A DNA stretch of 64,000 bases from NCBI RefSeq assembly GCF_056746865.1, contig NZ_CM163382.1. One strand, written 5' to 3'. Shown here piece by piece: positions 32,943-35,121 of the stretch. The notes beneath the pieces were generated by a model. The model was not told where the DNA came from, did no database searches, and saw only the letters and a program-made list of their open reading frames with translations. Position numbers and translations under genes: made by a program. How positions within the stretch are numbered: position 1 is the stretch's first letter; every line of letters starts with the position of its first letter.

Positions 32943-33662
32943 ATGGCTACCCCACACATTAATGCAGAAATGGGCGATTTCGCTGACGTAGTTTTGATGC
33001 CAGGCGACCCGCTGCGTGCGAAGTATATTGCTGAAACTTTCCTTGAAGATGCCCGTGAAGTGAACAACGTTCGCGGTATGCTGGGCTTCACCGGTACTTA
33101 CAAAGGCCGCAAAATTTCCGTAATGGGTCACGGTATGGGTATCCCGTCCTGCTCCATCTACACCAAAGAACTGATCACCGATTTCGGCGTGAAGAAAATT
33201 ATCCGCGTAGGCTCCTGTGGCGCTGTTCTGCCACACGTAAAACTGCGCGACGTCGTTATCGGTATGGGTGCCTGCACCGATTCCAAAGTTAACCGCATCC
33301 GTTTTAAAGACCATGACTTTGCCGCTATCGCTGACTTTGACATGGTGCGTAACGCAGTAGATGCAGCTAAAGCACTGGGCATTGATGCTCGCGTTGGTAA
33401 CCTGTTCTCCGCTGACCTGTTCTACTCTCCGGACGGCGAAATGTTCGACGTGATGGAAAAATACGGCATCCTCGGCGTGGAAATGGAAGCGGCTGGTATC
33501 TACGGCGTCGCTGCAGAATTTGGCGCGAAAGCCCTGACCATCTGCACCGTGTCTGACCACATCCGTACTCACGAGCAGACCACTGCCGCTGAGCGTCAGA
33601 CCACCTTCAACGACATGATCAAAATCGCACTGGAATCCGTTCTGCTGGGCGATAAAGAGTAA
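32943..33662 (+). CDS. deoD: purine nucleoside phosphorylase
   Basis: ORF-track frame 32886..33662; start trimmed to ATG 32943 ([31 protein letters not shown], 239 aa). Confidence 0.92.
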
Positions 33663-33694
33663 TTGTGTTTCGCTGAAAGGCGATTGCCTTGTGA

Positions 33695-33725
33695 AGCCGG
33701 AACGGGAGACTGCTCCGGCTTTTTA
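33695..33725 (+). terminator. intrinsic terminator after deoD (AGCCGGA-N12-TCCGGCT followed by T5)
   Basis: Hairpin plus T-run read from sequence. Confidence 0.6.
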
Positions 33726-33845
33726 GTATCTATTCATCAATAGCGACTGATTTATAGATTTACTATTATTTTTCATATGGATAGAAAATAAAATCCATTC
33801 ATGAATCTATTCATTTATGTTCAGCCGTCATCCAGTAAGGGTATA

Positions 33846-34073
33846 TCAGCAACTCTGGTGGACAACCATAAATTCCTGCCATTTTCTTTTGATGTTTGAG
33901 CTAAGCCGTTCCGTCTTTTCGATCCGTTTTAGAGAATTAATCGAGATACCTAACATTTTACTTACTTCAGCAAGCGATAATTTATGCCTGATACGCACGG
34001 CGGCTAGCCAGGATATACCCTGGCTGAACATTAAATTGATAACCTCCCGTTCCTGGTTTTCCAGATCGATCAT
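33846..34073 (-). CDS. small XRE-family helix-turn-helix protein (75 aa), orphan; occupies the deoD-lplA gap
   Basis: ORF-track frame; residues RIRHKLSLAEVSKMLGISINSLKRIEKTER fit the XRE/Cro-type HTH pattern; no partner gene in the 442-bp deoD-lplA gap. Confidence 0.45.
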   Translation of the reverse strand: MIDLENQEREVINLMFSQGISWLAAVRIRHKLSLAEVSKMLGISINSLKRIEKTERLSSNIKRKWQEFMVVHQSC

Positions 34074-34104
34074 ATTTCCTTCCCTGGATATTTTAATGAG
34101 CGAG

Positions 34105-35121
34105 TTACCGTACCGCCCCCGCTATCCATGCCGATAACTCCCGTAGCTCTTTTTCCTGTTCCGGGAAGTCAACCAACAGCGCTTCACACTCCTGTTGCAG
34201 CATGTCAGCGCGGTACAGGCAGCCTTGCAGCCGTCCTGCGAGGGCTTCCAGTGGTGCTGGGTTAAGGCTGTCGGTAAATACCTGGGCGCGGGTGATATGG
34301 CCTTTTTCAACGTCGAAATGCAGTTCCACGCCGCCCCAGGTAAAGCGTTCATCCAGCAGATGCGAGAATGCCGGAGCCTGACCGAAGTTCCACTCCCAGC
34401 TACTCTGACGGGCAAAGGTTTCGGCGAAGTTCGGCAAGTCTGGCGTTTTGTCCGGGGAGATGATTTCCGCTTCCACGTGCTCGCCATAATGGGCGAAAAA
34501 GGCCTCGGTTATGGCCTCGCAAACCTGCTCATGGGTGATCCCCGGCAGCAATTCGGTCAGATTGGTCACGCGGGAACGTACCGACGTAATGCCTTTCGCC
34601 GCCAGTTTCTTTTTATCCGGATTGAGATAGTTTGCCAGGCGGCTAAGGTCGGCATTGAGCAGCAAGGTGCCGTGGTGGAAGCCGCGATCTTTGGTTTCGC
34701 GATAGGCCGAGCCTGAGACTTTGCGGTCGCCTTCGGCGGTTTTCACCACCAGATCGTTACGTCCGGACGCTTCGGCGCTGACGCCGAGCGCGTTCAGCGC
34801 ATTGAGCACAATCGACGTGGAGATGGTTTTATCGTACTCCGGCTTGCCAGCCATAAAGGTAAAGCAGGTATTGCCGAGATCGTGGAACACTGCGCCGCCA
34901 CCGCTGCTGCGCCGCGCCAGGCGGACGTTATCTTCTTCCATCCGCCGGGTATTACACTCTTTCCACGGGTTCTGTGCGCGACCAATCACTACCGTGTCGG
35001 CATTGCGCCAGAGAAACAGAACGCGCTGCGTGGCGGGCATCTGGCGAAAAATACACTCTTCCACCGCCAGGTTAAACCACGGGTCGTAAGAGTCAGAGAT
35101 GAGCAGGCGTAATGTGGACAT
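34105..35121 (-). CDS. lplA: lipoate-protein ligase A
   Basis: 338-aa [28 protein letters not shown]... Confidence 0.92.

What the first reader, a model, noticed from the sequence alone, without database searches (positions are those of the whole stretch)
33663..34104. The deoD-lplA gap contains only a 75-aa XRE-type HTH ORF where K-12 is expected to carry yjjJ
In the K-12 order as I recall it, deoD is followed by yjjJ (a HipA-like kinase gene of about 1.3 kb) and then lplA. Here the gap is 442 bp and its only substantial ORF is a minus-strand 75-aa protein (33846..34073) whose core fits an XRE/Cro-type helix-turn-helix. It could be an orphan antitoxin-like regulator left after loss of a toxin/kinase partner, the N-terminal HTH stump of a deleted HipA-like gene, or a lineage-specific small regulator. 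The AT-rich stretch between it and the deoD terminator contains ATTCAT repeats including the palindrome ATTCATGAAT.
Basis: partly seen in the sequence, partly recalled or inferred. Interest (0 to 1): 0.5.

Follow-up and report, generated by a model that had tools for sequence, protein, structure and literature searches.

The report
Broken orphan antitoxin-like gene replacing yjjJ
Between deoD and lplA this E. coli strain carries a frameshifted, probably dead copy of a small DNA-binding gene that three quarters of E. coli genomes have in place of the K-12 kinase-toxin gene yjjJ (hipH); the gene descends from the DNA-binding half of a toxin-antitoxin antitoxin, so the finding is real but fairly ordinary.

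Summary
The deoD-lplA gap is 442 bp (33663-34104), K-12 has yjjJ there, and a minus-strand 75-aa HTH ORF lies at 33846-34073. That ORF is a pseudogene. A 1-bp deletion between 33885 and 33886 frameshifts codon 63 of an 87-aa XRE-family gene that is intact in most E. coli. RefSeq annotates the identical genome as 'frameshifted'. Among 5,426 complete genomes the locus is dimorphic: 4,062 carry the HTH allele and 1,348 carry yjjJ, essentially never both. The window's frameshift occurs in 140 genomes. The HTH protein is not a yjjJ stump: it is on the opposite strand and shows no similarity. It aligns with the C-terminal DNA-binding domain of ~120-135-aa HTH proteins (hhalign 99.4%), and those proteins always follow a RelE/ParE toxin gene in Pasteurellaceae and in enterobacterial plasmids and phages. 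Here the toxin and the N-terminal domain are both absent. yjjJ is the older occupant of the slot, because Salmonella has it there too. Best reading: an orphan antitoxin-derived regulator that replaced yjjJ and is now inactivated in this lineage. Its function when intact is unknown.

The parts
32943..33662 (+). deoD (purine-nucleoside phosphorylase), left boundary of the variable slot
   Evidence: ORF list; RefSeq annotation of the 100%-identical genome
33694..33724 (+). deoD terminator hairpin plus T-run. It is shared by both alleles. In this window a G>A change weakens the stem (GGAAC where other strains have GGAGC).
   Evidence: Sequence; alignments. The simple terminator scan did not call it.
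33726..33737 (+). Distal copy of the 12-bp repeat (GTATCTATTCAT). This is the last base shared with the K-12 allele before the allele-specific spacer.
   Evidence: Junction BLAST; pattern search; conserved in K-12, Salmonella and the L029 species upstream of yjjJ
33738..33792 (+). 55-nt AT-rich spacer specific to the HTH allele. K-12 has a different 55-nt spacer here, which holds the yjjJ promoter.
   Evidence: 23 of 55 positions identical; alignment score not above shuffles, 186 of 2000 reach it
33793..33816 (+). Proximal 12-bp direct repeats (ATCCATTCATGA, ATCTATTCATTT). There are two copies here and three in most strains. They are a relic of the conserved repeats that abut the yjjJ start codon. 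They include the lineage-specific palindrome ATTCATGAAT (33797-33806).
33817..33819 (+). ATG homologous to the yjjJ start codon. On the minus strand it is the His86 codon of the intact HTH gene. Homology with the yjjJ allele ends just after it.
33811..34073 (-). Full extent of the HTH pseudogene (the 87-codon gene minus one base). The original stop codon is TGA at 33811-33813, inside the last repeat.
   Evidence: RefSeq 'helix-turn-helix domain-containing protein, frameshifted' in the identical genome; alignment to intact alleles
33846..34073 (-). The 75-aa ORF as read by the first stage. Residues 1-62 are authentic (helix 0 and XRE helices 1-3) and residues 63-75 are out-of-frame.
33885..33886 (-). 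Site of the 1-bp deletion (C of codon 63 AGC on the coding strand; CATTTT-CTTTTG where intact alleles have CATTTTGCTTTTG).
   Evidence: Alignment. The identical 61-mer occurs in 140 of 5,426 genomes. tblastn recovers the C-terminal helices in a second frame.
34077..34084 (-). Purine-rich Shine-Dalgarno-like sequence (GGGAAGGA on the minus strand), 3 nt upstream of the HTH ATG.
   Evidence: Sequence; conserved across Escherichia alleles
34093..34104 (+). TTAATGAGCGAG, identical to positions -3 to +9 of K-12 yjjJ (most strains have TTAATCAGCGAG). It directly abuts the lplA stop codon and is a probable relic of the yjjJ 5' end.
34105..35121 (-). lplA (lipoate-protein ligase), right boundary. The HTH gene lies 31 nt downstream of its stop codon on the same strand.

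Best explanation
The 75-aa ORF is the frameshifted remnant of an 87-aa XRE-family gene that occupies the deoD-lplA slot in about 75% of E. coli in place of yjjJ (hipH).

Shown:
(i) A 1-bp deletion at codon 63 removes helices 4-5 of the five-helix XRE fold. A second, 12-bp deletion removed one repeat unit downstream.
(ii) The intact gene is a real, long-lived coding gene. It is always 31 nt downstream of lplA on the same strand, with an SD-like sequence and no convincing promoter of its own.
(iii) Residues 9-77 are homologous to the C-terminal DNA-binding domain of ~120-135-aa HTH proteins. In all 10 loci inspected where the upstream gene was identifiable, those proteins lie directly downstream of a RelE/ParE-family toxin gene on mobile elements.
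(iv) The toxin gene and the N-terminal domain of that family are both absent here.
(v) yjjJ occupies the same slot in Salmonella and in another enteric species. The HTH allele retains yjjJ's conserved upstream repeats, its ATG, and a copy of its first 9 coding bases next to lplA.

Inferred:
- A fragment of a RelE/ParE-XRE toxin-antitoxin module landed at the yjjJ start codon in an ancestor, and the rest of yjjJ was deleted.
- The surviving DNA-binding domain was kept as a small transcription factor, co-transcribed with ytjB-lplA. Its targets are unknown.
- In this window's lineage the gene has since been inactivated, so the locus here most likely does nothing beyond forming the 3' untranslated end of the lplA transcript.
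For: Frameshift and pseudogene status: 140 genomes share the exact 61-mer, so it is not a sequencing error; two-frame tblastn hit.

Domain loss: the intact protein matches HTH_3 over the full profile (1-55 of 55, 29.4 bits, cut-off 23). The 75-aa form matches profile positions 1-31 only (22.6 bits). The AF2 model has pLDDT 90 with helices at 4-18, 22-29, 34-41, 45-54, 59-69 and 73-76. Foldseek finds CylR2, P22 C2, controller proteins and SinR at 1.4-2 A rmsd.

Dimorphism: 4,062 genomes have the HTH allele and 1,348 have yjjJ, of 5,426.

Real gene: omega is 0.11-0.61 within Escherichia and 0.22-0.32 against the 44%-identical ortholog. That ortholog's dS (1.7-2.3) matches lplA's (1.75), and the ORF is 87 codons in both.

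Locus-bound: every homolog context is lplA-HTH-deoD.

Antitoxin-family homology: phmmer of 1.84 billion representatives, profile search, hhalign 99.4% with E 7.7e-22.

Toxin neighbours of the relatives.

No toxin or N-terminal domain in the window.

yjjJ ancestral in the slot.

Junction relics.
Against: No expression or binding data exist for the intact protein, so 'regulator' is inferred from fold alone.

The HTH proteins next to RelE/ParE genes are annotated only as HTH regulators. Their antitoxin role is inferred from gene order and a weak RelB-like N-terminal hit (23 bits, cut-off 27).

The 12-nt yjjJ relic next to lplA is short. BLAST E is 0.18 in the all-against-all comparison, and my position-restricted estimate is about 0.004. 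Most strains differ from K-12 at one base, and the P0079 species shows no such relic.

The insertion-then-deletion order is a reconstruction.

Many truncated variants in the databases, the 25% of genomes that lack the gene, and this frameshift lineage all show that the gene is dispensable. That weakens the case for an important function.
Confidence: 0.78

Rival explanations
1. The HTH gene is a functionless relic everywhere, not only in this window. It would be a leftover fragment of a mobile toxin-antitoxin module that is decaying slowly.
For: No promoter of its own was found. It is absent from 25% of E. coli. Many truncated or frameshifted variants exist, of 49, 67, 75 and 93 aa. It lacks the family's N-terminal domain and toxin. 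omega reaches 0.6 in one comparison.
Against: The ORF has stayed open at exactly 87 codons in two lineages separated by saturated synonymous divergence (dS about 2), with omega 0.22-0.32. Family-invariant residues are preserved: A25, R27, E52, A66, Y69 and C71. A neutral 264-bp ORF would not survive that long.
Confidence: 0.15
2. The 75-aa product of this window is still a working DNA-binding protein, a shortened HTH that retains the recognition helix.
For: Residues 1-62, including helices 0-3 and the helix-turn-helix proper, are unchanged. The allele is fixed in a lineage of at least 140 sequenced genomes.
Against: Helices 4 and 5 (59-69 and 73-76) belong to the hydrophobic core of every XRE domain found by Foldseek. 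The family-invariant residues A66, Y69 and C71 are lost. The score falls below Pfam's cut-off. RefSeq calls it a pseudogene.
Confidence: 0.05
3. The ORF is the inverted or remodelled N-terminal HTH stump of yjjJ, or a HipB-like antitoxin that once partnered the YjjJ kinase.
For: It sits where yjjJ sits in K-12. YjjJ has an N-terminal HTH, and HipB can neutralise YjjJ (PMC8262856, PMC9948734). The yjjJ upstream repeats are retained.
Against: It is on the opposite strand and BLASTP finds nothing. YjjJ's N-terminus gives only a weak MarR_2-like hit, not XRE. yjjJ is monocistronic in Salmonella, K-12 and a third species, with no HTH gene beside it. No genome count suggests co-occurrence. The protein's relatives pair with RelE/ParE toxins, not HipA. 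A true + strand stump looks different (WB61).
Confidence: 0.02

Closest known systems
HTH (XRE) proteins encoded directly downstream of RelE/ParE-family toxin genes on Pasteurellaceae prophage remnants and on enterobacterial plasmids and phages. Examples: Haemophilus P0131, Glaesserella P0176, Leclercia pZ96-1_2 WP_225988006.1, Serratia WP_129941838.1, phage PPyecE_EH1910 BCI50128.1. These are uncharacterised, putative antitoxins.
   Same: Residues 9-77 align with their C-terminal ~70 residues at 31-45% identity (hhalign 99.4%, E 7.7e-22). They share the extra helix before the XRE domain and the invariant A-R...E...A..Y.C motif.
   Different: The E. coli protein lacks their N-terminal ~55-residue domain (weak RelB-like hit). 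It has no toxin gene upstream, since lplA is there. It has an 11-residue C-terminal tail that runs into the old yjjJ leader. It is chromosomal and fixed in position.
HigA-type antitoxins (toxin-first RelE-superfamily / XRE-HTH type II modules)
   Same: Its relatives have the same gene order (toxin upstream, HTH protein downstream). It has the same DNA-binding fold class.
   Different: No significant match to the HigA model: for the P0079 ortholog TIGR02607 gives 18 bits against a cut-off of 47.7. No toxin partner is present. Membership is not met.
HipB and the N-terminal HTH of YjjJ/HipH
   Same: It occupies the genomic position where yjjJ lies in K-12, and it is a small HTH protein.
   Different: There is no sequence similarity to YjjJ. 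No HipB-model match was listed for the 75-aa ORF at E up to 1. It is on the opposite strand, and its family partners a different toxin class.
Generic XRE/Cro-C1 repressors (CylR2, P22 C2, SinR N-domain, restriction-modification controller proteins)
   Same: Five-helix fold with rmsd 1.4-2.1 A over 53-60 residues. Pfam HTH_3 scores above its cut-off for the intact protein.
   Different: It has an additional N-terminal helix (residues 4-18) and a C-terminal tail. No operator or target is known. The copy in this window lacks helices 4-5.

Membership tests
XRE / Cro-C1 HTH domain (Pfam PF01381 HTH_3) | Sequence match above Pfam's gathering score over the whole domain | tested here: met
   The intact 87-aa allele scores 29.4 bits (cut-off 23), profile 1-55 of 55, residues 23-76. 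The window's 75-aa product scores only 22.6 bits over profile 1-31, below the cut-off.
XRE / Cro-C1 HTH domain (Pfam PF01381 HTH_3) | Five-helix globular fold with helices 2-3 forming the helix-turn-helix | tested here: met
   The AF2 model of the intact protein has pLDDT 90. Foldseek matches CylR2, P22 C2 and SinR at 1.4-2 A. In the window's copy helices 4-5 are replaced by 13 out-of-frame residues.
XRE / Cro-C1 HTH domain (Pfam PF01381 HTH_3) | Sequence-specific DNA binding | not testable with these tools
   No operator could be identified. Needs EMSA or ChIP.
Type II toxin-antitoxin antitoxin (RelE/ParE-associated XRE type) | Homology to the HTH proteins of such modules | tested here: met
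   hhalign 99.4%, E 7.7e-22. Profile search E 1e-27 to 1e-33.
Type II toxin-antitoxin antitoxin (RelE/ParE-associated XRE type) | Adjacent cognate toxin gene in the same operon | tested here: not met
   The upstream gene is lplA, 31 nt away. tblastn with two family toxins finds nothing in the 64-kb window (best E 0.8). Relatives have the toxin in all 10 loci with an identifiable upstream gene.
Type II toxin-antitoxin antitoxin (RelE/ParE-associated XRE type) | Second domain outside the HTH (the family's N-terminal ~55 residues, the presumed toxin-neutralising part) | tested here: not met
   The alignments show the E. coli protein starting at family position ~58. There is no tblastn trace of the N-terminal domain.
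HipB antitoxin / YjjJ (HipH) N-terminal HTH | Sequence similarity to HipB or to YjjJ residues 1-100 | tested here: not met
   BLASTP against YjjJ finds only 6-residue chance matches, E 0.21 or worse. The NCBIfam scan of the 75-aa ORF lists no HipB model at E up to 1.
HipB antitoxin / YjjJ (HipH) N-terminal HTH | Same strand and frame continuity with yjjJ (for a stump) | tested here: not met
   yjjJ is on the + strand and the ORF is on the - strand. A true stump allele in WB61 is on the + strand.
Sigma-70 region 4 (Pfam PF04545) | Match above the gathering score in the context of a sigma factor (regions 2-4) | tested here: inconclusive
   25.3 bits against a cut-off of 24.1. The hit overlaps the stronger full-length HTH_3 match, there is no region 2, and the fold search returns XRE proteins. 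I read it as cross-family HTH resemblance.

The most novel reading that the evidence does not exclude
The yjjJ/HTH dimorphism may be an old polymorphism shared across species and not a simple loss. Both alleles are found in E. coli, and both are found in two related non-Escherichia species. The HTH allele keeps the yjjJ operator-like repeats almost intact even though yjjJ is gone. On this reading the intact 87-aa protein would be a domesticated antitoxin DNA-binding domain with a selected role. It might act on those repeats, or it might silence incoming RelE/ParE-XRE modules. Carrying the HipH kinase-toxin or the HTH gene would then be alternative, balanced states.
Probability: 0.1. Interest if true: 0.6.

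Novelty: new member of a known kind. Interest (0 to 1): 0.33.

Why it matters
Three points matter beyond tidying the annotation.

1. YjjJ/HipH is studied as a K-12 toxin kinase linked to persistence and c-di-GMP signalling. It is present in only about a quarter of complete E. coli genomes, and an unrelated small HTH gene fills its place in the rest. Conclusions about HipH therefore do not transfer to most strains.

2. The 'ATTCAT repeats' are the remains of a deeply conserved element. One distal copy and three proximal copies of ATCTATTCA abut the yjjJ start codon in E. coli, Salmonella and a third species. They are a concrete candidate for the undefined operator or regulatory site of hipH, and this can be tested by EMSA with the HipH N-terminal domain.

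3. The locus is a clean natural example of how an antitoxin's DNA-binding domain can outlive its toxin, become a fixed chromosomal gene, and later decay lineage by lineage.

Tried and rejected
- **Rfam** scan of the gap at E up to 1: no RNA family.
- **Promoter/terminator scan:** only one minus-strand promoter-like site, which overlaps the HTH start codon and so cannot serve the gene. No terminator was called.
- **yjjJ stump:** rejected by strand and BLASTP.
- **The 106-aa + strand ORF (33817-34137):** rejected as a gene because it is split in intact alleles.
- **Homology of the two 55-nt allele-specific spacers:** not supported. 23 of 55 positions are identical and the score is within the shuffle range.
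- **Elevated flank divergence as a sign of recent import of either allele:** only a mild rise in lplA's last 200 bp. Not conclusive.
- **Divergent 'species' L009/L010 (protein P0033, 72% identity):** rejected as probable assemblies of bisulfite-converted E. coli DNA, given the systematic C>T pattern.
- **Species-representative genome scan with the protein profile:** only two further Escherichia loci. It did not identify the organism that carries P0079.
- **PDB sequence and fold searches:** only generic XRE repressors, no specific antitoxin structure.
- **E. coli 'plasmid' hits of 0.4-4.9 Mb in PLSDB:** these are chromosomal sequence and are not evidence of mobility.
- **Literature:** I found no description of this allele or of a hipH operator.

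Full report
**1. The observation**

The window has deoA, deoB and deoD on the + strand, with deoD ending at 33662. On the - strand it has lplA (34105-35121) and ytjB, followed by serB on the + strand. The minus-strand ORF at 33846..34073 encodes 75 residues with an HTH core. Pfam HTH_3 scores 22.6 bits and Sigma70_r4 24.4 bits. In K-12 (C600) the same slot holds yjjJ, 1,332 bp on the + strand, with its stop codon touching the lplA stop codon.

A 106-aa + strand ORF (33817-34137) overlaps the HTH ORF. That ORF exists only because of the frameshift described below and is split into 27-aa and 84-aa pieces in other strains.

**2. The ORF is a frameshifted pseudogene of a common gene**

A megablast of 33400-34400 against 5,426 complete E. 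coli genomes matched over its full length in 4,062 of them. The remaining genomes matched only the deoD and lplA flanks. In the 100%-identical genome (FDAARGOS_497) RefSeq annotates 33811-34073 as 'helix-turn-helix domain-containing protein, frameshifted'.

Other strains carry an intact 87-codon gene, WP_000566150.1 or WP_000566247.1. The alignment shows two differences in the window:

- A 1-bp deletion between 33885 and 33886. On the coding strand, codon 63 AGC loses its C.
- A 12-bp deletion of one unit of a tandem 12-bp repeat just downstream of the gene.

After residue 62 the window's product reads 13 out-of-frame residues. The exact 61-mer spanning the deletion is found in 140 genomes from many laboratories. 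It is therefore a real lineage marker and not a sequencing error. A Glaesserella homolog matches the locus in two reading frames (34046-33849 and 33933-33847), which is the classic signature of a frameshift.

**3. What the intact protein is**

The 87-aa protein matches Pfam HTH_3 across the full profile, at 29.4 bits against a cut-off of 23. An AlphaFold2 model built on a 43-sequence family alignment is confident (pLDDT 90). It shows an N-terminal helix (4-18) followed by the five XRE helices at 22-29, 34-41, 45-54, 59-69 and 73-76. Foldseek against the PDB returns ordinary XRE DNA-binding domains: CylR2, P22 C2, restriction-modification controller proteins, SinR and CapH-N, at 1.4-2.1 A. A PDB sequence-profile search returns the same kind of protein.

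The window's frameshift removes helices 4-5 and the family-invariant residues A66, Y69 and C71. The 75-aa product is therefore unlikely to fold.

**4. Distribution and selection**

Word-indexed and exhaustive searches find the protein only in Escherichia and Shigella, including E. marmotae and cryptic clades, plus one full-length relative, P0079 (87 aa, 44% identity). Every context examined is lplA-HTH-deoD. P0079 also lies directly after an lplA, whose product is 90% identical to E. coli LplA. By LplA, that organism is about as far from E. coli as Salmonella is: 90% against 88% identity, and dS 1.75 against 1.4.

Nei-Gojobori estimates give omega 0.11-0.61 within Escherichia, based on few sites, and 0.22-0.32 against P0079. 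The dS against P0079 is 1.7-2.3, comparable to lplA's 1.75, while lplA itself has omega of about 0.03-0.05. So this is a real coding gene that evolves fast and has been co-inherited with lplA over a long period. Database variants of 49, 67, 75 and 93 aa indicate recurrent decay within E. coli.

**5. Family relationship: an antitoxin DNA-binding domain without its toxin**

The weak hits of the exhaustive search (P0081, P0093, P0097, P0102) share the core of the protein but carry about 55 extra N-terminal residues, with a sub-threshold RelB-like match. A profile search finds 334 relatives, mostly ~130-aa proteins of Haemophilus, Aggregatibacter, Actinobacillus and Glaesserella. Profile-profile comparison of the Escherichia clade with this clade gives 99.4% probability (E 7.7e-22), aligning residues 9-77 with residues 61-130.

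In seven Pasteurellaceae loci the gene lies 12-48 nt downstream of an 87-88-aa PF05016 (ParE/RelE) toxin gene, among phage and integrase remnants. The same arrangement is seen in three enterobacterial mobile elements: a Leclercia plasmid, a Serratia plasmid and an enterobacterial phage. The Leclercia and Haemophilus toxins are 54% identical. One relative (P0081) has only a 35-aa ORF upstream.

In the window there is no trace of such a toxin or of the N-terminal domain. The E. coli gene is thus an orphan, N-terminally shortened derivative of the HTH component of a RelE/ParE-XRE module. The antitoxin role of that component is inferred from gene order and has not been demonstrated.

**6. Relationship to yjjJ**

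yjjJ is present in 1,348 genomes and the HTH allele in 4,062. The two are essentially mutually exclusive. The HTH protein has no similarity to YjjJ and is on the other strand. YjjJ's own N-terminus is not XRE-like.

YjjJ orthologs are spread through the Enterobacterales. In Salmonella and in a third species they sit in the same deoD-yjjJ-lplA position. Their identities track LplA divergence. yjjJ is therefore the older resident of the slot.

Upstream of yjjJ in all three species there is one distal copy and three proximal copies of a 12-bp repeat, (A)ATCTATTCAnnn. The last copy abuts the ATG, while the rest of the intergenic DNA is not conserved. The HTH allele keeps:

- the distal copy (33726-33737);
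- the proximal copies (33793-33816, reduced to two in this window);
- the yjjJ ATG (33817-33819, which is now the His86 codon of the HTH gene on the opposite strand).

The HTH stop codon lies inside the last repeat. At the other end, TTAATGAGCGAG (34093-34104; TTAATCAGCGAG in most strains) repeats yjjJ positions -3 to +9 and directly abuts the lplA stop.

The simplest reconstruction is that the HTH-bearing fragment was inserted at the yjjJ start codon and that yjjJ codon 4 through its stop codon was then deleted. This step is an inference, and the 12-nt relic is short.

A rare third allele in strain WB61 is a genuine + strand yjjJ 5' stump fused to the lplA end.

**7. How it most likely works**

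In intact alleles the gene starts 31 nt after lplA on the same strand, behind a GGGAAGGA Shine-Dalgarno-like sequence. The only promoter-like site overlaps its own start codon. I infer co-transcription with ytjB-lplA and termination at the bidirectional deoD hairpin. The product would be a small XRE-type DNA-binding protein with unknown targets.

In this window the frameshift most likely abolishes function. No known RNA family maps to the gap.

**8. Literature**

Papers on YjjJ/HipH describe a monocistronic gene with an N-terminal HTH of unknown DNA target (PMC8262856, PMC9948734). They also report c-di-GMP-dependent control 'at the promoter region' (PMC11452175). A genomic-SELEX study places a sigma-70 promoter (TTTTCA-18-TCTATT) and H-NS binding in the deoD-yjjJ spacer (PMC3946193), and its -10 element falls in the first proximal repeat. 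None of the papers I searched mentions the alternative allele or the repeats.

**9. Verdict**

The gene is already annotated generically in RefSeq and belongs to known kinds: XRE regulator, orphan antitoxin-like gene, pseudogene. Interest is modest.

Three things remain unexplained:

- why the yjjJ repeats persist in the HTH allele;
- whether the two alleles are an old balanced polymorphism;
- what the intact protein regulates.

Noticed in passing
window 33726-33737 and 33793-33816; L002 4327-4429 (K-12); L028 3905-4000 (Salmonella); L029 65-154: One distal and three proximal copies of ATCTATTCA(nnn) lie immediately upstream of the yjjJ ATG. They are conserved between E. coli, Salmonella and a third species, while the rest of the spacer is not. 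They are a candidate operator or regulatory element for hipH. The -10 of the published sigma-70 promoter falls in the first proximal copy.
   Followed up: partly
L034 2501-2692 (E. coli WB61, NZ_CP020025.1): A third allele of the slot. A 192-bp + strand 5' stump of yjjJ is fused onto the lplA 3' end and annotated as a partial pseudogene 'transcriptional regulator'.
   Followed up: partly
L003 4469-4927 (E. coli PK8241): An IS200C transposase gene is inserted between deoD and the yjjJ upstream repeats in a yjjJ-allele strain. The slot is a recurrent target for rearrangement.
   Followed up: no
L009, L010 (Logan SRR18740011, SRR13921544); protein P0033: Apparent 72%-identical 'homolog' with deoD and lplA only 68-74% identical to the window. 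The changes are systematic C>T (R>W/C, S>F/L, A>V, P>L). These are most likely assemblies of bisulfite-converted E. coli DNA, not a new species.
   Followed up: partly
window 33817-34137 (+): A 106-aa ORF antisense to the HTH gene starts at the yjjJ-homologous ATG and runs 33 nt into lplA. It exists only in the frameshift lineage.
   Followed up: yes
window 33700-33703: The deoD terminator stem has GGAAC where other E. coli have GGAGC, which removes one G-C pair. E. marmotae has the same base.
   Followed up: no
window 34105-34107 vs L002 5762-5764: The lplA stop codon is TAA in the window and other HTH-allele strains and TAG in K-12. Allele homology resumes exactly at this codon, and divergence is mildly raised in the last ~200 bp of lplA (9-10 differences per 100 bp).
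   Followed up: partly
L007 4001-4204 and 2279-2758 (GCA_037201855.1): An E. coli genome with an internal deletion in the HTH gene (67-aa product) and a shortened ytjB call (159 aa where other strains have 214).
   Followed up: no
PLSDB records AP026530.1, NZ_OL790696.1, NZ_CP134663.1 and others (hits H101-H108): Records of 0.4-4.9 Mb filed as E. coli 'plasmids' carry this chromosomal locus. They appear to be chromosomes or chromosome fragments mislabelled as plasmids.
   Followed up: no
L017 3147-3254 and 3794-6079: The closest long-form relative (P0081) has only a 35-aa ORF where the toxin is expected. It lies next to a DUF2357/PDDEXK_7 (McrBC-like) gene, so it may be another decaying module.
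   Followed up: no
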